A stretch of 64,000 bases of DNA, from the sequence record MK817115.1. The stretch is one strand, 5' to 3'. Origin of the DNA: Escherichia phage vB_EcoM_phAPEC6. This document shows, one piece after another, positions 1,331 through 30,006 of this stretch. A model generated the notes under the pieces. It had not been told where the DNA came from and did not search any database. It saw nothing but the letters and a program-made list of their open reading frames with translations. A program made the position numbers and the translations under genes. How positions within the stretch are numbered: position 1 is the first letter of the stretch; every line of letters starts with the position of its first letter.

Positions 1331-1828
1331 TTAAGTCACTGCATTATACTTCTCTATAGCATTAGTAATATTTAATATAGCTTCAGGAACCATTTCTTTA
1401 TTGTATTCACGTTTTAAATTTTCCATTTTCTTAATAATTTCCAAGAAAAATGGCAAAATGCATGAAGTATCTGTGAAATTACATGAGTACAAAGTACTCA
1501 TTTGAAATAATTCACCTGAATCAATATTAAGAGATTTGTATTCCTTAACAATGTTTTCGTTTGTATTGAAAATATGAAATACTGTTCCCATGTGATGAAG
1601 ATATACACCATTCTCATTTTGAATATTGCATGGTGTGATTACAATAGCAGTGTTGTCAATATTATTTACTATTGATAAACGTAGACTATGTAAACCTAAA
1701 ATAACAGTACAATCACTTGAACTGCTTTGAATTTGGTCAGCAGTTTGTGTAACACTTGTAATATTTTCCCCATCAAGACAACTCTTGATTTTATCAAATG
1801 AATTTTTCATTGATTTAGTTAGATACAT
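1331..1828 (-). CDS. FamA paralog (FQxS-motif family)
   Basis: core motif GELFQMSTLY; tandem minus-strand array. Confidence 0.6.
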   Translation of the reverse strand: MYLTKSMKNSFDKIKSCLDGENITSVTQTADQIQSSSSDCTVILGLHSLRLSIVNNIDNTAIVITPCNIQNENGVYLHHMGTVFHIFNTNENIVKEYKSLNIDSGELFQMSTLYSCNFTDTSCILPFFLEIIKKMENLKREYNKEMVPEAILNITNAIEKYNAVT

Positions 1829-2232
1829 TTATGAACACCTTCGAAATATTTGATTAATGATTTTATCTTATCGCTACTAATGCCATGTAAGTCAACACCT
1901 AAACACTCGTATTGAAAAAAATCAATATCCTCAAGCGTGTTTAGATCAATTTCCACCTTATCATGACCCAACGAATTCATAATAACGTTTTTATCATTAA
2001 TTGTCAAGAAAGTTTTTTTATCTGAACCTAAAAAGATTTTTACGTGTTTTTTTGGCATTACATCATAAGATAAAGATTGTGAACCATAAATGTATATGCC
2101 TTCCATTGAACCAATATCTATAAAATATAGACGAATCCCTTTGTGGTATTTTGACTCCTTAGTGATCGCCTCTATTAGTTCATCTGTGGTTGTTAACCTT
2201 GTTTCTTTCTTCTCTAAATTGCTCAAATGCAT
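1819..2232 (-). CDS. hypothetical protein, weak FamA-like
   Basis: DFFQYE remnant of motif; tandem array; start uncertain (53-nt overlap). Confidence 0.5.
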   Translation of the reverse strand: MHLSNLEKKETRLTTTDELIEAITKESKYHKGIRLYFIDIGSMEGIYIYGSQSLSYDVMPKKHVKIFLGSDKKTFLTINDKNVIMNSLGHDKVEIDLNTLEDIDFFQYECLGVDLHGISSDKIKSLIKYFEGVHKCI

Positions 2233-2653
2233 AAAATAATACCTTGATCATTTGTAATGTTTCTGACATTACATCAGCAGAAAATTGAACATCAGTGTAT
2301 TTTACCATAGTACTTTGAGTAAAGAAAGTAGCTTCAATATCATCAAGGTCAAATGGTTCATCAAATAAATTAGTACTGAACATATCAGTTTTTTTCTTAT
2401 AAGTCAACATAAACTTAGCACTGTATCTCAATACAATTTCATCTTTACTTACTAAAATTCGTGCAATGTTCTGTCTACCCAGTGTTGTAATGTTAACATT
2501 AAACGTATTCTTTCGTGCCTCAACAATATCAACGAAATAACCATCACCTTGGTAAACGTTATGACGAACTTCTAATCCTTGTTGAACTGTATTGAACAGT
2601 GCGTCCTGGATAAAATAATTTGCAGTATCGATGTTTCCTAAAATATCTAACAT
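2180..2653 (-). CDS. FamA paralog (divergent)
   Basis: motif variant ATFFTQSTMV; tandem array. Confidence 0.5.
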   Translation of the reverse strand: MLDILGNIDTANYFIQDALFNTVQQGLEVRHNVYQGDGYFVDIVEARKNTFNVNITTLGRQNIARILVSKDEIVLRYSAKFMLTYKKKTDMFSTNLFDEPFDLDDIEATFFTQSTMVKYTDVQFSADVMSETLQMIKVLFYAFEQFREERNKVNNHR

Positions 2654-3183
2654 AACTTCTCCTTTATAGCTGTCATATTTAGAAGAAATTCAGTAAGCAA
2701 TTCCTCCGTAACATGCTCTGTATACCAGAATATCACAATATCTTTTGAAAGTCGTGTATTCATAAAAATATCTACTAACTCTTTGTAGTACTCTAGCGTT
2801 TCGAGATTTGTGAGAATTAACGAGTACTGAAAGAGTAATTCTTCAGTTAGATTAAATTCTGGATAAAGTAAATCATTGAACTCATGTGATGCAGTTTGAA
2901 CTTGAATTCGGTCAAAGTTATTGGTTATACAACCGGAATAAATATTTCGGTGCAACTCTCTGTACAACGCAGCATAATCTATGAATTTTGCTTTAGGGTT
3001 AAAATCAAGAACACTTTCACCTTTATATGACAATCGGTGGAACGCCGAGAACATAGTCACTTCCCACGGTTGCCTAATATCTAGCTCAGTGATATCAATA
3101 TTATTGGACAGAAGAACCGTAAAAATCTCACCAATCTTTAATAGTAATTTTGTACGTGCCAGTGCTACCATCGGGTCAGTCAT
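2647..3183 (-). CDS. FamA paralog
   Basis: core motif EELLFQYSLI. Confidence 0.6.
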   Translation of the reverse strand: MTDPMVALARTKLLLKIGEIFTVLLSNNIDITELDIRQPWEVTMFSAFHRLSYKGESVLDFNPKAKFIDYAALYRELHRNIYSGCITNNFDRIQVQTASHEFNDLLYPEFNLTEELLFQYSLILTNLETLEYYKELVDIFMNTRLSKDIVIFWYTEHVTEELLTEFLLNMTAIKEKLC

Positions 3184-3596
3184 TATACACCTTCATATTC
3201 ATCAAGAAAATCTTCGATAATCATTTCAGCTTCATCCATATGCATAGCATCAACTTCAATGATGCGAACTTTAGATGCATCCCAAATCATATAACTAGGA
3301 ACATTATCAGGCTCGTAGTCATTTTTGTACTGAACAGCATCGTAACCTTTCGAAATACAATGTTCAATTAGTGCACGCCACTCATCATCACTACCTAAAT
3401 CTTCACACAGAAGCACGTTATCAACATCAACTTCTAAGGTATGCAAGTATACTGTACATGCGTCTACTACGTTCAGTGGGCTTCTCAGCTTGCGTAAGGC
3501 AGCTTCCAAAGCACTGTGTTTGCCTCCCATATGAAGTCCACCATACGGGATATAAAAGTTATCAATTTTTACAGTACTCGCATGATACAGTTTCAT
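3183..3596 (-). CDS. hypothetical protein (non-family insert)
   Basis: ORF-track ORF without FamA motif; visibly GC-richer than neighbours. Confidence 0.5.
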   Translation of the reverse strand: MKLYHASTVKIDNFYIPYGGLHMGGKHSALEAALRKLRSPLNVVDACTVYLHTLEVDVDNVLLCEDLGSDDEWRALIEHCISKGYDAVQYKNDYEPDNVPSYMIWDASKVRIIEVDAMHMDEAEMIIEDFLDEYEGV

Positions 3597-3605
3597 ATTT
3601 CATTC

Positions 3606-4190
3606 CTATTTCAGTACTTTAGTCAATGCTTTCACAGCGGTTTCGAGTTGAGCATAGTCGTTAATTGTAAGGTAATGAATACCATGTGCATTCATTTCAG
3701 CATCTATTTTATTATATAAATCAAACATGTCAAGGATATGATTGTATGCATATGAAGTATTTGAAACACACAATTCTTGGAACAAACGTTCTTCCAAGTC
3801 ATTCACAACTTCTCCATGAATATCAAGTACTACACCATCTTTGTAAGTGTAGTACTCTTCACTCCACTCTTCAGAAAGTCGGAACAGTAACGGATTCCCG
3901 CCGAACACTTCCATGTCATAGGAATTTATCTCACTAAGTAGTGTTTCACCTGGTTCTGGTGTGAAGTCAAAATATGCGAGTGTTGTACCATCATAGTCCT
4001 TGAGTGATATACCAGTATGATTTAAGGTTACTTCACCATAATTATTATTCTTGAACTTGATTTTGATATTAATCTCAATGTATTTTATTGTCTCATCATC
4101 ACTGAAATTGTAATCAATTTTATACTTTTTCCAAAGAAGTTTGATATCTTTGAAGTACTTTAATTTACTTTCAATTTCTTTAAAGTCCAT
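3606..4190 (-). CDS. FamA paralog
   Basis: motif EERLFQELCVS. Confidence 0.55.
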   Translation of the reverse strand: MDFKEIESKLKYFKDIKLLWKKYKIDYNFSDDETIKYIEINIKIKFKNNNYGEVTLNHTGISLKDYDGTTLAYFDFTPEPGETLLSEINSYDMEVFGGNPLLFRLSEEWSEEYYTYKDGVVLDIHGEVVNDLEERLFQELCVSNTSYAYNHILDMFDLYNKIDAEMNAHGIHYLTINDYAQLETAVKALTKVLK

Positions 4191-4782
4191 CTGGAACCAC
4201 CATTTCTTGAATGTGCTTACATTTTATATTTGCCATATTGGTATGTAATATAATGCTGTGTTTACGCAATGATTTTACTTTGTAGCACTCATTGAGTACC
4301 GAAATAATTCCCCATAACTCTTCTACACTAATAGTGATAGGTTCACTTGTACTCAGTTGCATCAGTGCTGCTTGAACATCATCTTTGTTATTAATAGTGA
4401 ACTGGATTCCTCTTTTGAGAATTTTAGTTTTTGGATTGTACTCAGCTAATACATCACCTTCTGGATAACCCTCATGAAGTAATAATGTTGTTTCAAAATC
4501 ACCGCAGTTGAAGTTAATTTCATCATAATCAGGTACACAAATGTTCCCTTCCCCGTACTCATTAGGTTCAGATTCTAGTGTTAAAATACGCTGAGTCTCA
4601 TTGCTCAGGATGATAGAATCATTCCAGTACTGGGTAGTGAATGCTCTACGTTTCTTTTGAAAGCACATACTCGACATTGACCCATACTTCTTGTATATGG
4701 ACTTCTTGAACTCAATAGCAGCAGGAGCCACCTTGATAACTTCACGAATTAAGTCAATAGCTTCTTGATAACTTTTTCTCAT
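4180..4782 (-). CDS. FamA paralog (divergent)
   Basis: motif variant AALMQLSTSE. Confidence 0.5.
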   Translation of the reverse strand: MRKSYQEAIDLIREVIKVAPAAIEFKKSIYKKYGSMSSMCFQKKRRAFTTQYWNDSIILSNETQRILTLESEPNEYGEGNICVPDYDEINFNCGDFETTLLLHEGYPEGDVLAEYNPKTKILKRGIQFTINNKDDVQAALMQLSTSEPITISVEELWGIISVLNECYKVKSLRKHSIILHTNMANIKCKHIQEMVVPDGL

Positions 4783-5330
4783 TTATCGTATCCATATAAA
4801 ATATGATCTAGTGTACTTTGGACTTCTTCATGAAAGAATGAAGGGTAAACTTGTATTAATTTATCTTTAAGTTCAAGGGAATGGCATAGTTCTAATGTTT
4901 TGTAACAATCCTCGTACTGTGCCAGATCATGTAATGTACTTAACTGAAAATGTTGTTCTTCGGAGTACAATAAATCATAAACCATATTATCGGATAAAAG
5001 ATTAGATTTGATTGAAGGATCAAGTACTGTCTGGTGGTGACCAACCCAAAAGATAGCTTTTGAGTTAATGTTATTACAACCCCATCCTTTCCCCATCTTT
5101 TGGTGAATAGCAAATACACAGGAATCATACAAATTAATGCTCAGACGTTCTTCGTCTGCATGGATAGTTACACCATCAATAGATAGTGTATATTTGAAAT
5201 CCATAGCCCCCTCACTTCGTGCACGAGAACTAAAGACCAGATATCGATGAATTATGGTATTGATTTTATCTGTCCATCCATCAACACATTTGGATGCACA
5301 TAATGTAAAAAGATCATGATTGTAGTTCAT
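4779..5330 (-). CDS. FamA paralog
   Basis: core motif EEQHFQLSTLH; ATGA-type overlap with neighbour. Confidence 0.6.
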   Translation of the reverse strand: MNYNHDLFTLCASKCVDGWTDKINTIIHRYLVFSSRARSEGAMDFKYTLSIDGVTIHADEERLSINLYDSCVFAIHQKMGKGWGCNNINSKAIFWVGHHQTVLDPSIKSNLLSDNMVYDLLYSEEQHFQLSTLHDLAQYEDCYKTLELCHSLELKDKLIQVYPSFFHEEVQSTLDHILYGYDK

Positions 5331-5391
5331 AAAATTCTCCTTTAGGACAATGTATCATACAAAAATACCAGAGTCAACCCCTGGTACGAAT

Positions 5392-5973
5392 TTAATCCAT
5401 CATAAGTGGGATAATTGCCCATATCTTTTTCATAATCATATCTTCAGTAAAAACAAATGTTTTAGGAGCAGTATATGATATTGACACACCAAATGGAAGT
5501 TTGATTGCATCATCAATTATATTATGAATATCAAACCATGTTTTAACATAATCATACGGTGGAAGTTCATGAATTGTACTTAACTGAAAGTAATTCTCTT
5601 CACCAAAATCACTATATTCAATTTCACAAATTTTAGTGAATTGATGATTCCATTTAGATATAATACTATTTTTATTATTGTACATAGTAGTTCTATGCAT
5701 AAAACCATTTTTGCTAGTATGATTTGATATTACGTTTTCTTCAATGTCAGTATCTATTTTAAAATTCATATCAAAGTTGTAGTACGGACTTGACGATTCT
5801 TTGAATTTTAAATGTAAATTGCGATTGTTATTAATTTCAATTTCAATACAAAACACATCTGAATCAAAACGATTAAACTTGTAATCGTTATCTTCCGGTA
5901 GATTCTGTATTTTTTTCATAATACTAAGCATAGGGTGTACTACACTTTTAATAAAATCATTTGTTATTTTCAT
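5392..5973 (-). CDS. FamA paralog
   Basis: core motif EENYFQLSTIH. Confidence 0.6.
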   Translation of the reverse strand: MKITNDFIKSVVHPMLSIMKKIQNLPEDNDYKFNRFDSDVFCIEIEINNNRNLHLKFKESSSPYYNFDMNFKIDTDIEENVISNHTSKNGFMHRTTMYNNKNSIISKWNHQFTKICEIEYSDFGEENYFQLSTIHELPPYDYVKTWFDIHNIIDDAIKLPFGVSISYTAPKTFVFTEDMIMKKIWAIIPLMMD

Positions 5974-6466
5974 AGTATTCCTTTAGAACTTTATATGATT
6001 CAACAATACTATCTTGTGTATAATTTGAACTATATACAACAGCACTTGTTTTAGTTGACCATAGATATGACATAAAGGTTATAACACTACTACATGGACT
6101 TAATGTATTGTTTTGAAATTCAATTTCTTCAATGTTATCAGTACTGGTATAGATGAATTGGAAAGTACCCATTGATTTATTGGACAGCGATACTATAGTA
6201 GAATCCGTACCAGGACTATACATGAATGTCTCATTACTAATTGAACTATCATTAGTATATGATGGTTTGGGAATATAAATCAAACGCATGATATCGCGTT
6301 CAAGACCTGACTTATTACTTTCCACCAAAGAAATCATATCTATATTTGATATATGTTCAACACTGACATGGAACTTTTTGTCGAGAATCACATCTCCATG
6401 AGAATTTTTATATGAAGACAAAATCTCATACATCTCAACTAATTCGCGTGCATTTAATAAACTCAT
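5957..6466 (-). CDS. FamA paralog (divergent)
   Basis: motif variant EEIEFQNNTLS. Confidence 0.5.
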   Translation of the reverse strand: MSLLNARELVEMYEILSSYKNSHGDVILDKKFHVSVEHISNIDMISLVESNKSGLERDIMRLIYIPKPSYTNDSSISNETFMYSPGTDSTIVSLSNKSMGTFQFIYTSTDNIEEIEFQNNTLSPCSSVITFMSYLWSTKTSAVVYSSNYTQDSIVESYKVLKEYYENNK

Positions 6467-6891
6467 GTTTTGTCTCTTAATGAAAGAATATCCTTAGTAT
6501 AAACTGAAACAGAAATATGATTATATTTCATCATTAATTTATACACATAAGAAGCTAGTACTAAATCGTAAATTAATTTAGTATTATACAGTACTTGGTA
6601 TTGTAACGCAAGTGAATCAATATCATCTTTACTTTCAATATCCAGAAATGTACCGAAAAATGTAGTACCGTAGAGATGAAAAGTGGAATTAATGCAATCA
6701 ATGCATTCATTGTCCAATAGAGTAGATGCTGATGCCCTCGGTGAATCCCAAATAGTCACTGCGTGTATGCCCTCAACGAACAAATCTATCCATATTTTGT
6801 GTCGTTGTCTTTTTTTTGTTTTATAATTTTCTGGATTTGAAAGTGTAGTTTCAATTATATCCCATATGTACAAACAATCATCTCTTGTCAT
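6463..6891 (-). CDS. hypothetical protein, weak FamA-like
   Basis: ORF in array; degenerate motif LALQYQVLY. Confidence 0.45.
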   Translation of the reverse strand: MTRDDCLYIWDIIETTLSNPENYKTKKRQRHKIWIDLFVEGIHAVTIWDSPRASASTLLDNECIDCINSTFHLYGTTFFGTFLDIESKDDIDSLALQYQVLYNTKLIYDLVLASYVYKLMMKYNHISVSVYTKDILSLRDKT

Positions 6892-7469
6892 TGTAGCACC
6901 TTATCCATTGCTGCATTTAATGCTTTTAAACGATCAACATTCAAAGTATTGAAGATGTACGTTCCTAAAATGTGGAAATCGAATTGGTTCTTTTTGTATG
7001 TATGATAAATTAAACTACAAAAAACAACAGTACTAAGAACCTCTTCAGGTATAACAGTGCTCATCTGGAACAGTTCTTCTTCAACTGTACTTGAATCTGG
7101 ATTGATAGCTTTTAACACATACTCTTCATCACCGAATAGTACTTTAATATTATATAAAACACCAATAGTACTAATATGGAATGGGTGATGTGAAAAACTT
7201 CCATCATCCTTAATTTGTATATCGGTTCTAATCTCACACTCTTCATTACTTTTACTTTTATTTTTTACAATACAAATATTTCTGGCCCCAGAAATAGTAA
7301 GAATACCGTGGTCGTAATATTCATTTGACCAACATTTAGATGAAATTGATACATCACGGATGAGATATTGTTTTTCAATTTCTTTCGCACTACCAACAAT
7401 TGATAGCATTTTTTTACTGATATCATATAATAACTGATGGCGTTCTGTCATATAACTATAAGCGTTCAT
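6888..7469 (-). CDS. FamA paralog
   Basis: core motif EEELFQMSTVI. Confidence 0.6.
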   Translation of the reverse strand: MNAYSYMTERHQLLYDISKKMLSIVGSAKEIEKQYLIRDVSISSKCWSNEYYDHGILTISGARNICIVKNKSKSNEECEIRTDIQIKDDGSFSHHPFHISTIGVLYNIKVLFGDEEYVLKAINPDSSTVEEELFQMSTVIPEEVLSTVVFCSLIYHTYKKNQFDFHILGTYIFNTLNVDRLKALNAAMDKVLQ

Positions 7470-8040
7470 ATTTTTCCTTAACAGATTCTATATTTTGAAG
7501 TAGTGTATTCAGAACATCAGTCTTGCAATTGATAAAATCATTGTACATAACTAGTTCACCACAATCAAGAATTTTTGCAGTATCGTAACAAAGCATTAAG
7601 TACTCGAATTCTTTGTAATTGTCCAACAAGGATTTCTGGAAAATGAATGCATCTCGAATATCTTCACTTTGGTCTAATTCTGGTGGAACATCCAACCCAA
7701 TAAATCCATCATCTTCACTGAAATTAGATTCTACAATTTTATTCATTTTTTCATGTAATGCATTCGCAAATACCATATTAGAAGAAATAGAACCAATACG
7801 TTCACGATTTCTGGATGTGCGAATGTACATAGTAATCGTATCCCATGAACTTTTAATTTTTTTAGAAAATTCATAAGTTTTATATACATCCAACTGAACT
7901 GATCCAAAACGATGTTTGGATTTGTTTTCAATTTTCAGTCGATAATCATCAAATTCAACAATTTCTGTAATGTCATGAATCTCTGAAAGTTCTGCAATGT
8001 CATGCATGAGTCTCAAAATTTTAGTTCTGATATGGTTCAT
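7456..8040 (-). CDS. FamA paralog
   Basis: core motif DAFIFQKSLL. Confidence 0.6.
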   Translation of the reverse strand: MNHIRTKILRLMHDIAELSEIHDITEIVEFDDYRLKIENKSKHRFGSVQLDVYKTYEFSKKIKSSWDTITMYIRTSRNRERIGSISSNMVFANALHEKMNKIVESNFSEDDGFIGLDVPPELDQSEDIRDAFIFQKSLLDNYKEFEYLMLCYDTAKILDCGELVMYNDFINCKTDVLNTLLQNIESVKEKYERL

Positions 8041-8615: not shown

Positions 8616-8690
8616 CTCTAGTTAAAATCAAGTATAACACACCTGAATGCTCTTGTAAAGCCATAAACACAAAAAGACCCATACGGGTCT

Positions 8691-9209
8691 TTATTTTGGT
8701 AAAACACTGTCAATGTACGCTAGAACCTCATCTCGAAGGTACGTTCCATCTATAGTTAGGTAATAGTTCATGGGAATATCACTCCCAACCTTCTCATAAA
8801 TTTTCATACATGATATCACATCTTCATCACAAATGGTACTCAATTGAAAAAGAACTTCATCGGTTAACGGTACGATATCATGTTTAGATAGGGGATTTGT
8901 ATTTTCATTCAACACAATATTAATCAAGTTAGGAGTATTCTTTGACGAAATATAACGATGCTTACTACGAATTACCATTCTCGATAGTGAAATACTGGAA
9001 CTCCATCTTGGATCAACATCTTCATATGATAACGATATTAACATCTCGTGAAAATCTTGAAATTTCATTGACGCATAATATGTTTTATCCTCACCGTACA
9101 TACCAAATGATTTAAATTCAATATCCCCCACTTTGTATGTATCGACATCATTATTTGAGAACTTTATTAAACTATTAATTAGTCTAATTAGAATATCATC
9201 TTTATCCAT
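8691..9209 (-). CDS. FamA paralog
   Basis: core motif DEVLFQLSTIC; start moved to internal Met with GGAG RBS (track ORF runs to 9257). Confidence 0.55.
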   Translation of the reverse strand: MDKDDILIRLINSLIKFSNNDVDTYKVGDIEFKSFGMYGEDKTYYASMKFQDFHEMLISLSYEDVDPRWSSSISLSRMVIRSKHRYISSKNTPNLINIVLNENTNPLSKHDIVPLTDEVLFQLSTICDEDVISCMKIYEKVGSDIPMNYYLTIDGTYLRDEVLAYIDSVLPK

Positions 9210-12471: not shown

Positions 12472-12530
12472 TGTGTTATAACCCTTTACAATTAATATAA
12501 AGGGATTATATCACAAAAAATCGGTGGGTG

Positions 12531-21185: not shown

Positions 21186-21381
21186 CTTAATCTCTACTAT
21201 AATTAATAAGGTAAACTCCAATATAAGGAGCACGTTGCGGGGGCGGGGTATTTTTTGTTTCAGGAAACATGAACTGTACTCTGAAAAACACAATATAAAA
21301 CTTTATATTAAACATATACCTTAGCATGTTTTTCAGCGGAAATTTTTTTGACCCCCTGCGGCCTGTCAAAACGAAACGTCT

Positions 21382-21978: not shown

Positions 21979-22530
21979 TCATACATTAACAACTTTATCG
22001 ATGTAATCTTCTAACATATCAATATATCTGGTATTGGTTCTAACTAAAAGGTATGCAAATCCAGAGAACTCCTGTGTATAATGCTTTACAGCGTACATAC
22101 AACGAAGCTTATCATTGTCATACATTGTACTGTACTGAAACAAACTCTCGTCTGATAGCTCTAATAACGCTTGGGCTTCACTTCTCGTGAACTTCATAGG
22201 GTCATGTACTGCATCACAAAAACAAACCTGTGTCTCGCTATTGAAACCCTGTGATAGATATATACCTTCACACTCTGAACGCACCGATACTGCATTATAA
22301 CTATGTGTTGCCCCCATCATATCTGAACTCAAAACTAAAATCAACCCATTTTTATTTTTAATCAACAAATCTGACTTAAGGGATTTGATCTCCGTATGGG
22401 AAATATCACCAAATCTTCCTGGGACTTCAAACTTATCAACGTTGTATACAATCTTTTGTACTTGCTCTTTTAAACGCTTAATTGCACTTCTGTCTTTTTC
22501 TAATGTATCTAATAAACTCATTGAACTCAT
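21979..22530 (-). CDS. FamA paralog
   Basis: core motif DESLFQYSTMY; start at Met25 behind AAGGAAAG RBS (track ORF to 22602). Confidence 0.55.
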   Translation of the reverse strand: MSSMSLLDTLEKDRSAIKRLKEQVQKIVYNVDKFEVPGRFGDISHTEIKSLKSDLLIKNKNGLILVLSSDMMGATHSYNAVSVRSECEGIYLSQGFNSETQVCFCDAVHDPMKFTRSEAQALLELSDESLFQYSTMYDNDKLRCMYAVKHYTQEFSGFAYLLVRTNTRYIDMLEDYIDKVVNV

Positions 22531-22540
22531 TGTACTTTCC

Positions 22541-22882
22541 TTACATATTTGTACCGAACAAAACGGAACTGCGAACGTCATTGATCGACAATTCATGTAC
22601 ATATATATTTTGTCTGAACAAAGGAACTAATTGAACTAAACTTTGTTGCATAACAATATGCATATGTAAATTGTCATATGCCGTTTCGTATTGGAAACGT
22701 GCTGCTTCATCTTCTATGAAATTAGGAACTTGGACTGGATTTTCAAAATTTGTTCTTGAACTGAACTGCACATCATTATCCTGTACTTTAATACCATATG
22801 CATTATCATCATCATATACATCTAATTCAATTAAACTACCATCACTTTTTATGTTTACCACACAAACCGAAAATCGACTCAT
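22541..22882 (-). CDS. FamA paralog (divergent)
   Basis: motif variant EAARFQYETAY. Confidence 0.5.
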   Translation of the reverse strand: MSRFSVCVVNIKSDGSLIELDVYDDDNAYGIKVQDNDVQFSSRTNFENPVQVPNFIEDEAARFQYETAYDNLHMHIVMQQSLVQLVPLFRQNIYVHELSINDVRSSVLFGTNM

Positions 22883-23394
22883 AAACCTATTTCCTCTAAA
22901 TCTTTGACAAATGTATCATAATCCGATAATGACAAAAATATGTCTGTACTGATGTTTTGACGTAATGTATTAAACAAATTATGTACCTGTAATAAATCAG
23001 GTGCATAAATCAGGGATTGCTGGAAATACGATTCTTCTGTATCTAATATATCCCTGCACTCAATTTCACGAACTCGTTGGTATATTGAATTTAATAATAC
23101 ATTTTCATCTTTGAGCATTGGAAGGTATCTGATGTACATGTGCTCCATCAACTCATCCTGGATTGAACCCCTGAACTGCAACACGTATTCAAAACACATC
23201 ACTACATCTTGTAGGTAATTGGCACTGTAATTATTGCTGTAAACAATCTTATGACTTCTGAACTCATCATCATTTCTGAACCAATCGTCACCCACTTTGG
23301 TGTACTTATGACTAAGCTTCCCATCCTCCAACGCTCGAATGAACTTCATAATGTTAATTGCAAAATCATATGAATGATGCTTGTGTTGATGCAT
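22879..23394 (-). CDS. FamA paralog
   Basis: core motif EESYFQQSLIY. Confidence 0.6.
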   Translation of the reverse strand: MHQHKHHSYDFAINIMKFIRALEDGKLSHKYTKVGDDWFRNDDEFRSHKIVYSNNYSANYLQDVVMCFEYVLQFRGSIQDELMEHMYIRYLPMLKDENVLLNSIYQRVREIECRDILDTEESYFQQSLIYAPDLLQVHNLFNTLRQNISTDIFLSLSDYDTFVKDLEEIGL

Positions 23395-23598: not shown

Positions 23599-24222
23599 CT
23601 ATATATCCAACCCTTTTACAACATCTACGAAATGTTCAAACACTTCTTTTGAAAAATAACCACCTTCACAAAAAAGCATACTAAACGGTGGCAGCATGTC
23701 CGATAACTCTTTAGCTAAATTGATTTCTGCTCTTAACTCTTGAACATCAATGATATCATGTACTAACGATAATTGAAACATGAATGCATCTACATCTTCA
23801 TTCATTTCTGAATTGTAATATAACTCTTCAGGGAATTTGTCGGTTTCGTAATAATAAAAAACTTTATTGTTGAACACACCACTAATAGGAACATCATTTT
23901 CATCTTTCTTTGAAATGTTTGTTTCCCATGACTCTATATTATTAGGAACAAAAAAATCATAGGCTGATTTTGAACCCTGTACTGAATCCAACTTTATTCC
24001 ATAATATTCCGTATCCATGTATTTCTGCTGTAATGTAATACCACGTGTACTGACATTCACTTGGAATATATCATCTTTATCTGGAACACTAAATGGAATA
24101 CATAACACTGAATTCTCAGGGTATTTGGCAATGAATGCATCCAGCACTTTATTAAGCACCGGAATGGCAATTTTACTGTACTGCATCAAATCATACATTT
24201 TAATTCTGGTCATATCATTCAC
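23599..24222 (-). CDS. FamA paralog
   Basis: core motif DAFMFQLSLVH. Confidence 0.6.
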   Translation of the reverse strand: MNDMTRIKMYDLMQYSKIAIPVLNKVLDAFIAKYPENSVLCIPFSVPDKDDIFQVNVSTRGITLQQKYMDTEYYGIKLDSVQGSKSAYDFFVPNNIESWETNISKKDENDVPISGVFNNKVFYYYETDKFPEELYYNSEMNEDVDAFMFQLSLVHDIIDVQELRAEINLAKELSDMLPPFSMLFCEGGYFSKEVFEHFVDVVKGLDI

Positions 24223-24742
24223 CTGTGTATGTTTTCACCCTTAGCGATTCAAAATCCCATACATCACTGATTGTACCATTGTGCCTGTAATCATAATATT
24301 CTACTAATACATTATACAATAACTTCAACGATACAAATTCATGATTCCACGGAGCTTTATTCTCATGAACACATTTGGTGATATAAGGTATAATATATAA
24401 ACTAAACAACACTAATGGTGAATGTATACATTGCATTTGAAAATATTCTTCTTCTTGCATACAATGCTCAGGAATAATCAATTCCGTATGTGACCCTAAG
24501 CTATACGAACCTGCTGTGTATTTTTTCGTATCACATGCGTACCATATTGTACTATCCGAAATAAATGGAATGATACCATTATTGTTTGCAATGTACATCA
24601 TATGGTAAGAGCGATTTGTCTTGTTAAATATCTCAATACTTTCGATATTACTACAAATCATGTATTCAATGCAATCAATAATCTTATCTTTAAATGCACC
24701 AATTTCATTGAATGTCATTGATTTCTGCACTTCACTGCTCAT
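24215..24742 (-). CDS. FamA paralog
   Basis: motif EEEYFQMQCIH. Confidence 0.55.
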   Translation of the reverse strand: MSSEVQKSMTFNEIGAFKDKIIDCIEYMICSNIESIEIFNKTNRSYHMMYIANNNGIIPFISDSTIWYACDTKKYTAGSYSLGSHTELIIPEHCMQEEEYFQMQCIHSPLVLFSLYIIPYITKCVHENKAPWNHEFVSLKLLYNVLVEYYDYRHNGTISDVWDFESLRVKTYTGE

Positions 24743-25281
24743 ATGTTCTCCTTAAAAAAATTCAAATACTCTTCATTGAAAGCATATGTATCATCTTTTT
24801 TGTTATGCACCACATAATCATAAAGAGCTATGAATGCAGGGATTATGATCTTACATGATTTATTATTGTATTTGTACTGCTCCAAATCAACGGTGTTCAA
24901 TTTAGCAATAAGCATAGCAGCAAAGATATCTTCATGGCGGTGTACTGTGCTGTACTGAAAATATTCATCCTCTCCAATATCGGGATGATATAACGGTATA
25001 ACCAAATTATTACGAATTGACATCTTATATTTTTGTAATGCAGCTAAATGTATGAACCACAATCTATCTTCATTGAAATATGGAAAAATAATTTTGTCTG
25101 TGCTAATAAAAATTTCTTCATTTCGATTATTTGTCACAAGAGGTGCATACATTTTAATTTTTGCAGATTTAATAATTAAATTAAAAATATAATGAATCTT
25201 ATGAACTGCACTTGATGCATCTTCGTATGTACTTGGGATTATGAAACTCACTATATGTTCTCCTTTAAAATGAATACACAT
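24739..25281 (-). CDS. FamA paralog
   Basis: core motif EDEYFQYSTVH. Confidence 0.6.
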   Translation of the reverse strand: MCIHFKGEHIVSFIIPSTYEDASSAVHKIHYIFNLIIKSAKIKMYAPLVTNNRNEEIFISTDKIIFPYFNEDRLWFIHLAALQKYKMSIRNNLVIPLYHPDIGEDEYFQYSTVHRHEDIFAAMLIAKLNTVDLEQYKYNNKSCKIIIPAFIALYDYVVHNKKDDTYAFNEEYLNFFKENI

Positions 25282-25333
25282 GATAACAGCTTTGGTCTTC
25301 TATGTCAATACCAAAACGAAAAAAGCCCATATC

Positions 25334-25840
25334 TTACGATACAGGCGTTCTGGGCATGTTGATTTGAATTTCATTGTACAAATCATCAATATATAGACAT
25401 GAAAAAAATACACTATCTTGTACTATATTGTTGTGATAAAGCATTTTAAATACTACATAAAAAAATAAATCAATATCATCGTGGACTAAATTCTGCTGGA
25501 ACCACCACTCGTCTGTTAAATCTTGTGCATTAAAATCATCAGGAACTTCAATGAACGACATATCACAATCTTCTTTGTACTCAAACCACATGTCGTCATT
25601 CGGATAACGTTCATGCTTCTCTGGGTAACAATTGCTGGGATTAAATGTTAAAATATTAAACCCCGTAGAGCAACGTTCTTTATTTAAAAATGTATTATTC
25701 CATACCTGATATTTTTCACCAACATCAAGCTCTTCTGTTACTGATTTTATTGCACATAATGTACTGTATATTGTTTCTATCTTGTGAACATATTTAAATG
25801 CAGCATCTAAGCTGAACTCTAAATCATACATGTACTGCAT
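25334..25840 (-). CDS. FamA paralog
   Basis: motif DEWWFQQNLVH. Confidence 0.55.
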   Translation of the reverse strand: MQYMYDLEFSLDAAFKYVHKIETIYSTLCAIKSVTEELDVGEKYQVWNNTFLNKERCSTGFNILTFNPSNCYPEKHERYPNDDMWFEYKEDCDMSFIEVPDDFNAQDLTDEWWFQQNLVHDDIDLFFYVVFKMLYHNNIVQDSVFFSCLYIDDLYNEIQINMPRTPVS

Positions 25841-26160
25841 AAAATTACCTCAACTAAAGCAAGGACTGTATTGAATTCCACTATACTTGTAATTCCTTGA
25901 AGGTACATATACTTTGCTACTACATATTTCTGTACTAAATTATAATTATTAAATTCCTCAAAATTGTAATTTAGAACAAAATCTGTACTCAAAAATATCT
26001 TATGCATCTCTAATGCACTTTGATAATACGCGTACAACTCACTGATATCAATACTGGTTAAATTATATTGTTCATATCTATGATACGGGATGGCTTCAAT
26101 TTCAATACTATAAAACCATTCTCTTAACTTATTAATATCAAATGTATTATTCAGCTTCAT
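25819..26160 (-). CDS. hypothetical protein
   Basis: ORF in array, no motif. Confidence 0.5.
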   Translation of the reverse strand: MKLNNTFDINKLREWFYSIEIEAIPYHRYEQYNLTSIDISELYAYYQSALEMHKIFLSTDFVLNYNFEEFNNYNLVQKYVVAKYMYLQGITSIVEFNTVLALVEVILCSTCMI

Positions 26161-26713
26161 AACTCAATACCTCCATTAAACACTCATACACACCATCAAT
26201 CGCATAAGCACAAAAATTGAAATTAATTTTGTGATTCTTGTGTAATGGACTATTGTGTACTGTACTCATTATGACATTATAAAATAACAAACGCACTGGT
26301 ACAAGCATTGAACCTTGGAAAAATTCTTCCTCTGATTTATATGTATTGTACTCTATTGTTTTGTTCGTTTCTTTATCATATGTTACCATTACTAATGGGG
26401 CATTTTTATTATACCATGCGTACTCTAAATCATTCTTTCCAATAACAGCACCAGGTGCGAAATCCAAAAGACCAATAACACTACGGGAATTTGGGGTATC
26501 AGGTGTATTGAATCGTTTATCAAAATGACTCGTGCACGCAATATATGTATTGTACTTCGATGGAATAATACCAATACATTTGTGGAAATGACGCTTGTGA
26601 TATTTCTGGGCATTATATAAGGCTGCAACAATACAAGCTAACTTTTGTCCCATAAGGATTGCATTAGCGTAGGTGTACTGAATTTCATTGCTGGTACGGT
26701 ACTTCGAGGTCAT
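26147..26713 (-). CDS. FamA paralog
   Basis: core motif EEEFFQGSMLV. Confidence 0.6.
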   Translation of the reverse strand: MTSKYRTSNEIQYTYANAILMGQKLACIVAALYNAQKYHKRHFHKCIGIIPSKYNTYIACTSHFDKRFNTPDTPNSRSVIGLLDFAPGAVIGKNDLEYAWYNKNAPLVMVTYDKETNKTIEYNTYKSEEEFFQGSMLVPVRLLFYNVIMSTVHNSPLHKNHKINFNFCAYAIDGVYECLMEVLSYEAE

Positions 26714-26996
26714 AATATTTCCTTTGCCATATCATGGGCTTAAAATCAATAACAGCTTTCTGTATCTTTTTTAATAATAAGACATCATAACCACCCGTGT
26801 CAATCACTAATTGCTGTTGGAACAATTCTTCATCGGATAATGTATTGAAATCTACAAAATAATCTGTAACTATCGAATCATTTAAATGTGCCATGTACCA
26901 ACCTGAACTTCTTGAATAAATCAAATTCCACCCATCGTCATCATCTTCTAATTCAACATAAATCATATCTGGGGTATACATCATTTTATACTTCAT
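26685..26996 (-). CDS. FamA paralog
   Basis: motif DEELFQQQLVI. Confidence 0.55.
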   Translation of the reverse strand: MKYKMMYTPDMIYVELEDDDDGWNLIYSRSSGWYMAHLNDSIVTDYFVDFNTLSDEELFQQQLVIDTGGYDVLLLKKIQKAVIDFKPMIWQRKYYDLEVPYQQ

Positions 26997-27534
26997 AACT
27001 ATATCCTTGCATTAATAAATCATAAACTACATGGACTAAATTTAATTGAATATAAAATTTTAAACCTTTAATTAATGGATTCAAATGCATTGTACTGAAT
27101 AACATTAGATACATCATCTCATGCGGTTTTGTGATTAATGATTTTTGAAATACTTCAGCTTCATCATAAGGGTCTATGAACTGAAATTTGTCTTCATCAT
27201 AATTTGTATTGGAATGCTGATATATAAAATAATCATCATTGGTATTGTACCACAAATATCCTTCGAATCCTGTACTAACATCTTTGGTCAATGGGGATGC
27301 TGATACTGGATTTGAACTGATTAATGCACCTACATCAACAATCCCCGTTGTATCATATTCGATTTCAACATCAATATCAATGTATTTCCTTGCGATATCC
27401 GCGTTTATGGACAAATATAAACTACCACCTGTCCTCTGACTCAGGATTCCATCTATATGCGATATAGGATGGTTGTTATTGAGGATAAGCATTATTGTAC
27501 TTATCTTGTGTGCTAATAACTCTATCTCATTCAT
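26986..27534 (-). CDS. FamA paralog
   Basis: core motif EAEVFQKSLIT. Confidence 0.6.
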   Translation of the reverse strand: MNEIELLAHKISTIMLILNNNHPISHIDGILSQRTGGSLYLSINADIARKYIDIDVEIEYDTTGIVDVGALISSNPVSASPLTKDVSTGFEGYLWYNTNDDYFIYQHSNTNYDEDKFQFIDPYDEAEVFQKSLITKPHEMMYLMLFSTMHLNPLIKGLKFYIQLNLVHVVYDLLMQGYSYEV

Positions 27535-28507: not shown

Positions 28508-28695
28508 ACTATCTCCGTTCGCAACGAATTTATATAATAATGAACAAATTGTTCTTGTGAACGTGTTCCAAGAAAAATAAACATATCAAACTCTGTTGTT
28601 TTTAAATTCAATGCATCTTTTGTAAAATTCCTGTTGAATTCCCTGTACTTTTGGGTCTTCCATTCTTGATTAATTGTCTTGTATATCGATTTCAA
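28477..28695 (-). CDS. FamB-like small protein
   Basis: FLGTRSQEQFVHYYI motif. Confidence 0.5.
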   Translation of the reverse strand: MKSIYKTINQEWKTQKYREFNRNFTKDALNLKTTEFDMFIFLGTRSQEQFVHYYINSLRTEIVCKTQGIIKR

Positions 28696-28996
28696 TGATT
28701 CTCCCTGATGTACCTTGTATTAGCTTATCATACATATCGAGCATCACTTTTTGAATACTAATTAGTACTGGCATCGTGCAAATATCAATGTCGTATACTA
28801 AGCTGTACTGGAATAATTCATCTTCCTGCATTTGTACTAAATTAGGTAAAGGATAATTGTCTGCCTCTTCATCCTGGTACTTGAAATGCATAACACCATC
28901 CTTTTTGTACAAAAGAATGTCAATATCACCTAACTCATCAGCATAACCAAAAATACATATACTCGATGTTTTTGCTATATTAAATTTCATCTCCAC
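28670..28996 (-). CDS. FamA paralog
   Basis: core motif EDELFQYSLVY. Confidence 0.6.
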   Translation of the reverse strand: MEMKFNIAKTSSICIFGYADELGDIDILLYKKDGVMHFKYQDEEADNYPLPNLVQMQEDELFQYSLVYDIDICTMPVLISIQKVMLDMYDKLIQGTSGRIIEIDIQDN

Positions 28997-29232
28997 CTCT
29001 CTCCGTCAGCACAAGAGTACTGGTACGTTGTCGTTAGGGTAGGGACCATGTTTGTAATGGGCATGTTGTTAACAATAACCGTAACAGGCATAAGAATCGT
29101 CTCTACTCTACTCTGTCCTGTCCTTGTGCAATTCATCTTCTGCATTTCATCTGAATCCATGAAATACAATACAAATGGTGCAATCCCAAGAACAATACAC
29201 AAGACGATAAGGAAATTTAAAAAATTTAACAT
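28987..29232 (-). CDS. putative small membrane protein
   Basis: N-terminal hydrophobic stretch FLNFLIVLCIVLGIAPFVLYF; syntenic strand; weak RBS. Confidence 0.4.
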   Translation of the reverse strand: MLNFLNFLIVLCIVLGIAPFVLYFMDSDEMQKMNCTRTGQSRVETILMPVTVIVNNMPITNMVPTLTTTYQYSCADGERWR

Positions 29233-29291
29233 AATTTTTACCCTATGATTAACGTTAGTGTACTATATCAGTAATGAAAAGTACTGTCAAG

Positions 29292-29696
29292 CTAGTATTG
29301 CACTGTTCTAATGAAAGTACCTTTACTCATGGATTTAAGCTTATGAACCTCTTCCTGCATACCCTTAATTAACCCTAAAGGTATAGGTAAATCATGTACT
29401 AAGCTGTACTGAAAGTATTCTTCTTCAGATAAAGTACTAACATCTGGAACGCCAATTTTAGTTATATAATCTTGATGTGTTGACCAATAAATTATATCTT
29501 CAGTACTATTGTACTCCCCATATACTGAACAATATTGATGAATATCTTTCCTGTACCCTTGAGCAATAAAGAACTTATCTAATGCATTACCAGCATTAAT
29601 AGAATTTACTTCGATTGTCACAGTACTTGAGCTTGTATAACTCTTAATATTATCAGTACTCTTAATACTCAACGATGTGTTCTTCATAATCACCAT
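29292..29696 (-). CDS. FamA paralog
   Basis: core motif EEEYFQYSLVH. Confidence 0.6.
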   Translation of the reverse strand: MVIMKNTSLSIKSTDNIKSYTSSSTVTIEVNSINAGNALDKFFIAQGYRKDIHQYCSVYGEYNSTEDIIYWSTHQDYITKIGVPDVSTLSEEEYFQYSLVHDLPIPLGLIKGMQEEVHKLKSMSKGTFIRTVQY

Positions 29697-30006
29697 TAGG
29701 CTCCTGTTTAGATTCTTTCATTAGTACTATCATCTTATGTACTAATGGCATAGGAAACTCTAAATCCCATACTAATGATTCCTGAAAGTATTCCTCTGGT
29801 GATAAAGTACTTAAATCTTTAATATCAACGTGCTTGTATATTTTATTTTCGTAATTAACAAATGATATATATAAATCACTAACATAAGAATCATAGGTAA
29901 TTGTGAATGGTTTACCCTTGTAATCCATTACATCTCTACATAGACTACTTTTGATATATGTATGTTCAAATGATTTATATACCTTGAGTTGTATATTAGT
30001 TTTCAT
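29662..30006 (-). CDS. FamA paralog
   Basis: core motif PEEYFQESLVW. Confidence 0.6.
   Translation of the reverse strand: MKTNIQLKVYKSFEHTYIKSSLCRDVMDYKGKPFTITYDSYVSDLYISFVNYENKIYKHVDIKDLSTLSPEEYFQESLVWDLEFPMPLVHKMIVLMKESKQEPNGDYEEHIVEY

What the first reader, a model, noticed from the sequence alone, without database searches (positions are those of the whole stretch)
1331..30006. Tandem array of about 55 FQxS-motif paralogs (FamA) filling almost 30 kb
Nearly every minus-strand gene from 1.3 to 30 kb, plus one at 58.6 kb, encodes a 100-210 aa protein with a variable N-terminal half, a short invariant core [DE][DE]x[FY]FQxS[TL][VI] and a C-terminal segment often carrying F[YF]LD. N-termini are highly diversified while the core is kept. 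Subfamilies are visible, for example ELFQ(A/E)(A/S)LVFDKKY at 13762, 19567, 19923 and 20808. An amplified, diversifying single-domain repertoire of this size is unusual and suggests a variable host-interaction or anti-defence set; the function is unknown.
Basis: seen in the sequence. Interest (0 to 1): 0.85.

Follow-up and report, generated by a model that had tools for sequence, protein, structure and literature searches.

The report
Forty-one-gene early protein family, jumbo phage
A giant E. coli phage devotes about 20 kb next to its genome end to at least 41 divergent copies of one small, uncharacterised protein with an apparently new fold. The genes sit where phages keep their first-expressed host-takeover genes, so this is probably a battery of host-targeting proteins whose targets are unknown.

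Summary
The window is an Asteriusvirus (121Q/G17-like E. coli jumbo phage). Between 1331 and 30006, 41 of 68 minus-strand ORFs form one protein family (HMM E<1e-3). Three more are borderline and about eight carry only a degenerate motif, so there are about 41-52 members, not about 55.

The core [ST]-E-E-x-[YLF]-F-Q-x-S-[LT]-[VIL] is selected at the protein level. Only F and Q are invariant. An AlphaFold model (pLDDT 92.6) has no analogue in the PDB, and Pfam, PADLOC and PDB sequence searches find nothing.

The family occurs only in RaK2-like jumbo phages, with about 3 copies (CBB), 18 (Munch), 29 (Muenster) and 39-42 (Asteriusvirus).

The genes are tightly packed. Consensus sigma-70 promoters and terminators occupy the few intergenic gaps. 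In phages with mapped ends the array starts about 6 kb inside the left terminal repeat.

Most paralogues are ancient. Each is kept as a syntenic orthologue under purifying selection (dN/dS about 0.26), so the "diversifying" reading is not supported.

The most likely reading is an early-expressed repertoire of small acidic host-takeover or anti-defence binders built on one scaffold. The targets are untested.

The parts
1331..1828 (-). family member, 165 aa, core SGELFQMSTL
   Evidence: HMM member; motif
2647..3183 (-). family member, 178 aa, EELLFQYSLI
4779..5330 (-). family member, 183 aa, EEQHFQLSTL
5392..5973 (-). family member, 193 aa, EENYFQLSTI
6888..7469 (-). family member, 193 aa, EEELFQMSTV
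7456..8040 (-). family member, 194 aa, DAFIFQKSLL
8691..9257 (-). family member, 188 aa as longest ORF (the G17 annotation starts later), DEVLFQLSTI
9202..9765 (-). family member, 187 aa, ESAMFQLSLI
10288..10791 (-). family member, 167 aa, EESYFQNSLI; one of three basic members (pI 9.1)
10779..11192 (-). family member, 137 aa, PDELFQYSLV
11176..11538 (-). family member (short form), 120 aa, EEELFQESTI
11504..11998 (-). family member, 164 aa, EEMYFQKSLI
11995..12471 (-). family member, 158 aa, EEEFFQYSTV; first gene after the 12/12 promoter
12531..13115 (-). family member, 194 aa as longest ORF, QEYYFQLSLL
13075..13416 (-). family member (short form), 113 aa, EGELFQESLV
13395..13838 (-). family member, 147 aa as longest ORF, EEEMFQYSTV; no orthologue in ph0011
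13762..14124 (-). family member (short form), 120 aa, EDELFQESLV
14723..15283 (-). family member, 186 aa, EENIFQNSVL
16171..16620 (-). family member, 149 aa, EEGYFQGSTV
16925..17239 (-). family member (short form), 104 aa, ESFIFQESLV
17236..17688 (-). family member, 150 aa, EEYYFQNSTV; the member modelled (pLDDT 92.6); first of the young 5-gene cluster
17666..18154 (-). family member, 162 aa, EEYYFQNSTL; young cluster, net charge -26
18154..18597 (-). family member, 147 aa, EEYYFQQSFI; young cluster
18594..19064 (-). family member, 156 aa, EEYYFQQNTI (S replaced by N); young cluster
19066..19557 (-). family member, 163 aa, EEYYFQQSTV; young cluster; 58% identical to 17666-18154; no orthologue in ph0011
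19567..19926 (-). family member (short form), 119 aa, DGELFQAALV
19923..20279 (-). family member (short form), 118 aa, TAELFQESLV
20279..20650 (-). family member (short form), 123 aa, EEEFFQESTV; no orthologue in ph0011
20808..21293 (-). family member, 161 aa as longest TTG ORF (the real start is probably about 125 aa from the stop), DAALFQAALV
21979..22602 (-). family member, 207 aa as longest ORF, DESLFQYSTM
22879..23394 (-). family member, 171 aa, EESYFQQSLI
23599..24222 (-). family member, 207 aa, DAFMFQLSLV
24215..24742 (-). family member, 175 aa, EEEYFQMQCI (S replaced by Q); found only by HMM iteration; no orthologue in ph0011
24739..25281 (-). family member, 180 aa, EDEYFQYSTV
25334..25840 (-). 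family member, 168 aa, DEWWFQQNLV; found only by HMM iteration
26147..26713 (-). family member, 188 aa, EEEFFQGSML; no orthologue in ph0011
26685..26996 (-). family member (short form), 103 aa, DEELFQQQLV; found only by HMM iteration
26986..27534 (-). family member, 182 aa, EAEVFQKSLI
28670..28996 (-). family member (short form), 108 aa, EDELFQYSLV
29292..29696 (-). family member, 134 aa, EEEYFQYSLV
29662..30006 (-). family member (short form), 114 aa, PEEYFQESLV; promoter-proximal end of the array
22541..22882 (-). borderline member, 113 aa, EDEAARFQYETAYD
   Evidence: broad-profile HMM E=1.3e-3; motif
5957..6466 (-). borderline member, 169 aa, NIEEIEFQNNTL
   Evidence: E=7e-3; hhalign 5.7%
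   Evidence: E=0.0065, 0.11; motif
3606..4782 (-). two interspersed ORFs (3606-4190, 4180-4782) with a degenerate motif at the equivalent place (LEERLFQELC; VQAALMQLST); membership unproven
   Evidence: AF2 of 4180-4782 failed, pLDDT 37
3183..3596 (-). conserved non-family landmark inside the array: ADP-ribosyltransferase-like ORF, 137 aa
   Evidence: 60% identical to Muenster gp123, annotated as ART by HHpred; found in 73 phage records; not confirmed by Pfam or PDB phmmer
12505..12534 (-). sigma-70-type promoter, TTGACA-18-TATAAT with TG, in an intergenic gap
   Evidence: 12/12 match; sequence
29262..29290 (-). sigma-70-type promoter, TTGACA-17-TATAGT with TG, in an intergenic gap
25280..25346 (-). 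terminator hairpin (25325-25346) followed by promoter TTGACA-17-TATCAT (25280-25308)
   Evidence: G17 terminator annotation
8631..8692 (-). terminator hairpin (8673-8692) followed by promoter TTTACA-17-TATACT with TG
21342..21369 (-). weaker sigma-70-type promoter in an intergenic gap
5365..5387 (-). terminator-like hairpin in an intergenic gap
20647..20811 (-). 54-aa truncated copy of the start of gene 19923-20279 (85 nt, 96% identical): a scar of a recent unequal crossover
   Evidence: D17
36226..36444 (-). 219-nt intergenic region with TTGACT promoters; corresponds to the inner boundary of the direct terminal repeat in fEgEco12

Best explanation
This is a lineage-specific multigene family of small (about 100-210 aa), mostly acidic, soluble alpha/beta proteins found only in RaK2-like jumbo phages.

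Shown: the genes sit in tightly packed operons. Consensus host sigma-70 promoters and intrinsic terminators occupy the few intergenic gaps. In relatives with mapped ends the array begins about 6 kb inside the left direct terminal repeat. Each paralogue is old, individually conserved and under purifying selection.

Inferred: the genes are expressed early by the host RNA polymerase. The conserved core acts as the structural keystone of a common scaffold. That core is an N-capped short helix ([ST]EE-x-aromatic-FQ), a tight S-[LT]-[VIL]-aromatic-D turn, a long amphipathic helix and a closing F-Y-L-D strand. The variable N-terminal helix and beta-sheet give each paralogue its own binding surface. 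The set would then work as a battery of stoichiometric binders, each of which inactivates or redirects a different host protein, defence protein or competitor-phage protein during takeover. Copy number has grown by tandem duplication, from a few genes (CBB) to more than 40 (Asteriusvirus).
For: Family and motif.

Fold: a confident single-domain model (pLDDT 92.6, pTM 0.86) with the motif in its best-predicted part. BFVD models of divergent members share the fold.

No relatives outside the clade: only 135 cluster representatives among 1.84 billion proteins, all single-domain, 65-208 aa.

Physical properties: acidic (median pI 5.0, 36 of 41 below 6) and no transmembrane segments.

Selection and age: purifying selection and synteny against ph0011; ancient paralogy with two young tandem clusters and one duplication scar.

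Promoters: 5 of 22 strong minus-strand sigma-70 matches fall in the 506 nt of intergenic gaps (0.37 expected, Poisson p = 4e-5), often just after a terminator.

Position: in fEgEco12, whose ends were verified experimentally (PMC13070987), the order is DTR 1-20,993, then the tiny-gene array, then 42 family members at 27,270-56,262, all reading inward. Muenster has the same layout with a PhageTerm-defined DTR.

Analogy: in the related jumbo phage PA5oct the small genes of the DTR region are the early, host-RNAP-transcribed class (PMC7318152). CBB has RpoD-like promoters at this end (PMC5259590).

Not structural: no virion protein between gp347 and gp549 in the phAPEC6 proteome (PMC7247149).

Neighbour: an ART-like gene sits inside the array, as T4 carries Alt/ModA/ModB among its early takeover functions (textbook knowledge).
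Against: No expression, interaction or phenotype data exist for any member. Early timing rests on promoter consensus and on analogy. That the left end enters the cell first is an assumption.

An invariant Gln and near-invariant Glu-Glu, Ser and Lys are more polar conservation than a purely structural core needs. They could mark a shared functional site, which favours the hub or ligand models.

Steady purifying selection (dN/dS about 0.26) with no elevated-rate signal is not the usual signature of arms-race anti-defence genes.

PADLOC and PDB searches give no link to any defence or anti-defence protein.
Confidence: 0.45

Rival explanations
1. Common-hub adaptor family. The invariant polar and aromatic C-terminal core (EE..FQ.S...K) is a docking site for one shared partner, which could be a host protease, the RNA polymerase, or a phage enzyme such as the neighbouring ART-like protein. 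The variable N-terminal half selects different substrates. This is the logic of F-box, BTB or poxvirus PRANC adaptor families.
For: The architecture is a variable N-terminal part plus a short, strictly conserved C-terminal module. F and Q are invariant, and E103, S110 and K129 are 59-89% conserved across about 205 sequences. The core evolves most slowly (dN/dS 0.17 against 0.31). An ART-like gene is conserved inside the array in all genera.
Against: In the model the motif lies in the most confidently packed region, and its hydrophobic positions look like core residues. [ST]-E-E is a classic helix N-cap, which has a structural explanation. No partner is known, and coordinates could not be inspected.
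Confidence: 0.15
2. Ligand-binding or enzymatic domain. The conserved E-E, Q, S, D, K constellation would be an active or ligand-binding site, and the paralogues act on related small molecules or nucleic-acid ends.
For: Conserved polar residues cluster around the helix-turn-helix junction.
Confidence: 0.08
3. DNA-mimic anti-restriction proteins (Ocr/ArdA-like in action), at least for the very acidic 17236-19557 cluster.
For: Net charges are -10 to -26 and pI is 4.05-4.7 in that cluster. Position and timing are early-type.
Against: The predicted fold is a mixed alpha/beta globule with no match to Ocr, ArdA or other mimics in the PDB. Three members are basic or neutral. Acidity is common among phage early proteins.
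Confidence: 0.08
4. Virion or inner-body components. The paralogues would be packaged proteins like the paralogous inner-body families of phiKZ (121Q and phAPEC6 do have an inner body).
For: 121Q shows a phiKZ-like inner body (PMC5646251). Paralogous head-protein families are known in phiKZ-like phages (own knowledge).
Against: The phAPEC6 virion MS lists 62 proteins, none in the gene-number range that should hold this block (the mapping is inferred). The promoters are of host sigma-70 type. No prohead-protease-type N-terminal propeptide is evident.
Confidence: 0.04
5. The core is a short linear motif rather than a fold element. It would be either a 3C/TEV-type protease site (E-x-x-Y-x-Q|S/G resembles EEYYFQ|N) or a beta-clamp-binding motif (QL[SD]LF resembles Q-x-S-L-[LIV]).
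For: The string resemblance is striking in many members: EEYYFQN, EENYFQL, EEGYFQG; QLSLL, QLSLI, QKSLI. The motif consensuses are from own knowledge.
Against: The segment is helix plus a tight turn with pLDDT of about 98, inside a folded domain, not an exposed linker or tail. Half of the members have T where the clamp motif needs L, and many have L or F where TEV needs Y. No Gln-specific protease was seen among the ORFs scanned.
Confidence: 0.03
6. Functionless or selfish filler: duplicated ORFs tolerated because a large capsid gives spare capacity.
For: Hua et al. proposed tandem duplication as a route to genome expansion in jumbo phages (PMC5646251).
Against: dN/dS is about 0.26 in every region of the protein. 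36 of 41 orthologues are retained in synteny. The family is conserved across at least five genera with intact ORFs and translational coupling.
Confidence: 0.04

Closest known systems
Terminal multigene families of large eukaryotic DNA viruses (ASFV MGF360/505/110; poxvirus ankyrin/PRANC, Bcl-2-like and kelch families)
   Same: Tandem arrays of divergent paralogues of one small domain lie next to a genome terminus or terminal repeat. Copy number differs between lineages (about 3 to 42 here). Orthologues are retained. A host-interaction role is presumed.
   Different: There is no sequence or fold relationship. The host is a bacterium. The function here is untested. Variation between close isolates is modest: 39-42 copies, and 5 of 41 members lack an orthologue in ph0011.
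Early host-takeover modules of large virulent phages (SPO1 gp37-60 in the terminal redundancy, T5 pre-early region, T4 early 'monkey-wrench' ORFs with Alt/ModA/ModB ARTs; early DTR genes of PA5oct)
   Same: Small proteins are encoded in densely packed operons behind strong host-type promoters, at or next to the terminal repeat. An ART-like gene is embedded in the array.
   Different: Those modules are collections of unrelated ORFs. Here about two thirds of the block is a single paralogous family. Early timing has not been measured for this phage group.
[quoted passage not shown]
   Same: The phenomenon is the same and it occurs in the same phage group (PMC7824862, PMC5646251, PMC3622015).
   Different: These are one-sentence mentions that describe no motif, fold or distribution. 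The 121Q remark ('very similar') fits the adjacent array of about 31 tiny genes at 28.2-36.2 kb better than this deeply diverged family.
PHROGs 9317, 12674, 13866, 15629, 34017 and about 10 others
   Same: Window members hit these profiles.
   Different: All are 'unknown function'. PHROGs splits the family into many groups, so its unity and size are not visible there.

Membership tests
Any curated protein family (Pfam-A, PADLOC, PDB sequences) | Significant profile match above the curated threshold | tested here: not met
   Pfam: 0 hits above the cut-off for 10 members. PADLOC: only 4 scattered single-member hits among 41. PDB profile search: 0 hits at E<=1.
Terminal multigene family (ASFV/poxvirus type) | Tandem paralogues adjacent to a genome terminus or terminal repeat | tested here: met
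   fEgEco12: DTR ends at 20,993 and the family spans 27,270-56,262. Muenster: DTR 1-20,030 and the family spans 20.9-50.5 kb.
Terminal multigene family (ASFV/poxvirus type) | Copy-number change between lineages through gain and loss | tested here: met
   Copies: about 3 (CBB), >=15 (Hallingskeid), 18 (Munch), 29 (Muenster), 39-42 (Asteriusvirus). 5 of 41 members lack a ph0011 orthologue. Duplication scar.
Terminal multigene family (ASFV/poxvirus type) | Demonstrated host-range or immune-evasion function | not testable with these tools
   Needs deletion mutants and host panels.
Phage early host-takeover module | Host-sigma-factor promoters driving the operons | tested here: met
   Consensus sigma-70 sites lie in 5 of 7 intergenic gaps, p = 4e-5. 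This is consensus evidence only.
Phage early host-takeover module | Transcription within the first minutes of infection | not testable with these tools
   Only by analogy: early DTR genes of PA5oct (PMC7318152).
phiKZ-like inner-body or virion paralogue families | Presence in purified virions | tested here: not met
   The phAPEC6 virion proteome has no entry between gp347 and gp549. Mapping of the array to that range is inferred from synteny, because MK817115 is not in the collection.
3C/TEV-type protease substrates | E-x-x-Y-x-Q|(S/G) in an exposed, flexible segment, plus a cognate protease | tested here: not met
   The motif sits in a helix and turn with pLDDT of about 98. The P3 residue is Y in only about 40% of sequences. 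No protease domain was seen in the ORFs scanned, although the whole genome was not searched.
Sliding-clamp-binding proteins | QL[SD]LF-type pentapeptide in a disordered terminus or loop | tested here: not met
   The pattern Q-x-S-L-[LIV] is present in about half of the members and T replaces L in 44%. It is embedded in the folded core.
DNA-mimic anti-restriction proteins (Ocr/ArdA) | Strongly acidic protein with a DNA-like elongated fold | tested here: inconclusive
   The acidity criterion is met for most members. There is no fold match to the mimics in the PDB. The charge pattern could not be inspected without coordinates.

The most novel reading that the evidence does not exclude
The family is a bacteriophage counterpart of the eukaryotic-virus substrate-adaptor families (F-box/PRANC-like). 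About 40 early proteins would share one invariant docking module (EE-x-aromatic-FQ-x-S...K) for a single hub, possibly the co-located ART-like enzyme or a host protease. Each would use its variable beta-sheet half to deliver a different host or defence protein to that hub. That would be a programmable, many-target takeover system built on a fold not seen before.
Probability: 0.15. Interest if true: 0.85.

Novelty: new variant of a known kind. Interest (0 to 1): 0.62.

Why it matters
Over 80% of jumbo-phage genes have no known function. Here a single uncharacterised domain accounts for about 7% of the genes of a 350-kb phage that is being developed for therapy, and it recurs in every RaK2-like genus examined.

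A confidently predicted fold with no solved analogue, a defined signature motif, and a graded expansion (about 3, then 18, 29 and 42 copies) make the question concrete: what do these phages need forty variants of one small early protein for?

If the proteins are target-specific inhibitors, they are a ready-made library of probes against E. coli, Klebsiella and Salmonella proteins or defence systems. If they share one hub, they would be the first adaptor-type multigene family described in a phage.

Tried and rejected
- Interspersed ORFs were tested as hidden members with hmmsearch --max, jackhmmer, hhalign and a broader 205-sequence profile. Only two reach borderline scores, and the rest show a degenerate motif without statistical support.
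- An AF2 model of one of them (4180-4782, 5-sequence alignment) failed with pLDDT 37. Its helix / strands / helix / helix / strand order resembles the family but cannot be used.
- The 'DNA repeat' artefact is rejected on codon diversity and on the repeat scan: only the two young clusters and one 85-nt duplicate are similar at the DNA level.
- Gene-wide diversifying selection is rejected.
- The ART annotation of 3183-3596 could not be reproduced with Pfam or PDB phmmer. It rests on another group's HHpred note.
- The phAPEC6 record (MK817115) is not in the collection, so the gp numbering could not be mapped directly.
- One literature search with generic terms returned only irrelevant papers.
- The protease-site and clamp-motif readings were considered and set aside on structural grounds.

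Full report
**Identity of the window.** Megablast places the window in the genus Asteriusvirus, the 121Q/PBECO4-like E. coli jumbo phages of about 350 kb. Window 10-30 kb is 98.6% identical to vB_EcoM_G17 and 95% identical to 121Q, and every gene there is annotated 'hypothetical protein'. G+C is about 31% across the array, and the minus-strand genes are packed with overlapping stop/start codons.

- A simple pattern search finds FQ.S in 36 of the 57 minus-strand ORFs of >=100 aa below 30.3 kb. Shuffling each protein gives 1.13 on average and never more than 6.
- An HMM built from motif-bearing ORFs and iterated on all 349 ORFs of the window converges on 41 members at E<1e-3, all on the minus strand between 1331 and 30006. 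A broader profile of 205 sequences recovers the same 41.
- The members are 103-207 aa long and cover 19.1 kb, which is 67% of the interval. They are 41 of 68 non-nested minus-strand ORFs.
The 30-nt core is only 55% identical between copies. Phe and Gln use both synonymous codons. The conserved Ser is encoded by AGY in 23 members and by TCN in 12 members, two codon families that cannot interconvert by a single synonymous change.
- A repeat scan finds DNA-level similarity only in two young clusters and one 85-nt duplicate.

**Where the observation overshoots.**
- 'About 55 members' and 'nearly every gene' are too high. Beyond the 41, three ORFs are borderline: 22541-22882, 5957-6466 and the 58.6-kb ORF 58563-59234, which reads EEELFMYSTV.
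- About eight interspersed ORFs show a degenerate motif at the equivalent distance from the C-terminus: DFFQYE, FFTQST, LFQELC, LMQLST, LALQYQVL, MFNANLL, CFQLSC. None reaches significance by hmmsearch --max, jackhmmer or hhalign.
- An AlphaFold model of one of them failed (pLDDT 37).
- Only F and Q are strictly invariant. E103, S110 and K129 are 59-89% conserved.

**The protein.**
- AlphaFold2, run with the 41-sequence alignment, gives a confident single domain for the 150-aa product of 17236-17688 (pLDDT 92.6, pTM 0.86). The order of elements is: N-terminal helix (3-21), seven beta-strands (28-91), a short helix 103-109 (EEYYFQN), a five-residue turn (STVYD), a long amphipathic helix (115-129) and a closing strand 135-138 (FYLD).
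- The signature therefore reads as an N-capped helix ([ST]-E-E), an aromatic-Phe pair, Gln, a tight turn and the next helix.
- Short members (about 105-135 aa) lack the N-terminal helix and some strands.
- Foldseek against predicted viral structures finds only uncharacterised proteins of 121Q (TM 0.87), SP27, RaK2, GAP32 and Serratia phage BF. Those models were predicted independently, so they show that divergent members (16-34% identity) share the fold.
- The members are mostly acidic (median pI 5.0; 36 of 41 below 6; the 17236-19557 cluster has pI 4.05-4.7). No member has a credible membrane segment.

**Distribution.**
- An exhaustive HMMER scan of 1.84 billion cluster representatives returns only 135 proteins at E<=1e-3. 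All are 65-208 aa with no fused domains, and nearly all carry the motif.
- Distant representatives map to Erwinia phage Hallingskeid and Klebsiella phage Muenster.
- Scanning homologous regions with the family profile gives the following counts:

| Phage | Members found |
|---|---|
| Pectobacterium CBB | about 3 (weak) |
| Erwinia Hallingskeid | >=15 |
| Salmonella Munch | 18 |
| Klebsiella Muenster | 29 |
| Escherichia ph0011 | 39 |
| this window | 41 |
| Escherichia fEgEco12 | 42 |

- The family is therefore a hallmark of RaK2-like jumbo phages and has expanded most in Asteriusvirus.

**Evolutionary mode.**
- Against ph0011 (about 83% DNA identity), 36 of 41 members have syntenic reciprocal-best orthologues at 39-95% amino-acid identity (median 76%). 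Five have none.
- Gene-wide dN/dS has a median of 0.26. Pooled over all pairs it is 0.31 for the N-terminal part, 0.17 for the 17-codon core and 0.29 for the C-terminal part, against 0.21 for the interspersed non-family genes.
- Most paralogue pairs share only the motif (23-40 bits).
- Real recent duplication is limited to five genes at 17236-19557 (35-58% identity, period about 450-480 nt) and three at 19567-21293. There is also a 54-aa truncated copy (20647-20811) of the start of gene 19923-20279.
- The repertoire is thus old, individually maintained and slowly turning over. It is not hypervariable.

**Genomic setting and timing.**
- The array has only seven intergenic gaps of more than 40 nt. 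Five of them hold a strong sigma-70-type promoter on the coding strand, one of them a perfect TTGACA-18-TGtTATAAT. This compares with 0.37 expected (p = 4e-5). Three are preceded by a terminator hairpin.
- The termini of fEgEco12 were verified by PhageTerm and restriction mapping (PMC13070987). There the order from the left end is: 21-kb direct terminal repeat; an array of tiny genes (21.1-27.3 kb); the FQxS array (27.27-56.26 kb); Dam methylase and nucleotidyltransferase. All read inward.
- Muenster and Munch have the same order.
- The DTR boundary corresponds to the 219-nt gap at window 36226-36444.
- In the related phage PA5oct, the small genes of the DTR region are the early class and are transcribed by host RNA polymerase (PMC7318152). 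CBB has RpoD-like promoters at this end (PMC5259590).
- The phAPEC6 virion proteome (62 proteins) contains none between gp347 and gp549. Its RCC1-like 'DNA condensation' proteins gp549/551/003-010 match the window's plus-strand ORFs at 60.9-63.3 kb, so the array should fall in the empty range (PMC7247149). That mapping is inferred.
- One conserved non-family gene inside the array, 3183-3596, is 60% identical to a Muenster protein annotated as an ADP-ribosyltransferase by HHpred. It is present in 73 phage records. I could not reproduce the assignment.

**Interpretation.**
- What is shown: a clade-specific family of 41 or more members with a new fold, under purifying selection, in sigma-70-promoter operons next to the terminal repeat, and absent from the virion proteome.
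- What is inferred: early expression, and a role as a battery of small binders against host, defence or competitor proteins. In this reading the conserved core holds the scaffold and the variable N-terminal half provides specificity (confidence 0.45).
- The main rival (0.15) is that the invariant polar core docks all paralogues onto one hub, which would make them substrate adaptors.
- Ligand or enzyme, DNA-mimic, virion-component, linear-motif (TEV-like site, clamp-binding-like QxSL[LIV]) and 'filler' readings are each less likely, for the reasons given under the rivals.

**Prior knowledge.**
- The literature has only passing remarks. [quoted passage not shown] A restatement for phAPEC6.
- PHROGs splits the family across more than 10 'unknown function' groups.
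- I found no description of the motif, fold, distribution, position or selection regime of this family in the searchable library.

**Verdict.** This is a genuine, large and previously uncharacterised family. The kind of phenomenon is known: a lineage-specific early-gene expansion near a viral genome end. The family, its fold and its scale in a phage are new. Interest 0.62.

Noticed in passing
window 28241-36225, minus strand: A second, separate tandem family of about 31 tiny ORFs (66-104 aa; N-termini such as MQMxxLTxxEY) lies between the FQxS array and the terminal-repeat boundary. It has no Pfam match. [quoted passage not shown] 2017.
   Followed up: partly
window 36226-36444: A 219-nt intergenic region with two TTGACT promoters aligns with the inner boundary of the 20,993-bp direct terminal repeat of fEgEco12. 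The window from about 36.4 kb rightward (to about 57 kb by repeat length) should therefore be the terminal repeat.
   Followed up: partly
window 3183-3596, minus strand: A 137-aa ORF is far better conserved than its neighbours: 60% identical to its Klebsiella phage Muenster counterpart and present in 73 phage records, including a few Vibrio phages. Others annotate it as an ADP-ribosyltransferase (HHpred 4GV2). Pfam and PDB phmmer do not confirm this here.
   Followed up: partly
window 20647-20811, minus strand: A 54-aa ORF has its first 28 codons and ribosome-binding site 96% identical to the start of gene 19923-20279. This is a truncated duplicate, and it indicates recent unequal recombination inside the array.
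   Followed up: yes
window 60939-62105 and 62112-63320, plus strand: Two RCC1-repeat proteins (388 and 402 aa) correspond to the paralogous 'DNA condensation proteins' detected in phAPEC6 virions (gp003-010, gp549, gp551). They form a third paralogous set in this window.
   Followed up: partly
window 40057-40698, minus strand: A 213-aa ORF has a weak protein-kinase-domain match (E about 3e-3, below the Pfam cut-off). Its counterparts in ph0011, fEgEco12 and Munch are annotated as protein kinases and lie inside the terminal repeat.
   Followed up: no
window about 56000: GC skew changes sign and the coding strand switches from minus to plus. This marks the junction between the leftward small-gene block and the rightward RCC1 block.
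   Followed up: no
L005 (CBB 23110-26139), L007 (Munch 21318-34236 and 46686-48323), L004 (Muenster 20938-50544): Family copy number rises stepwise across genera (about 3, 18, 29, then about 40). The ART-like gene always sits at the distal end of the array. Munch has two extra members about 12 kb further in.
   Followed up: partly
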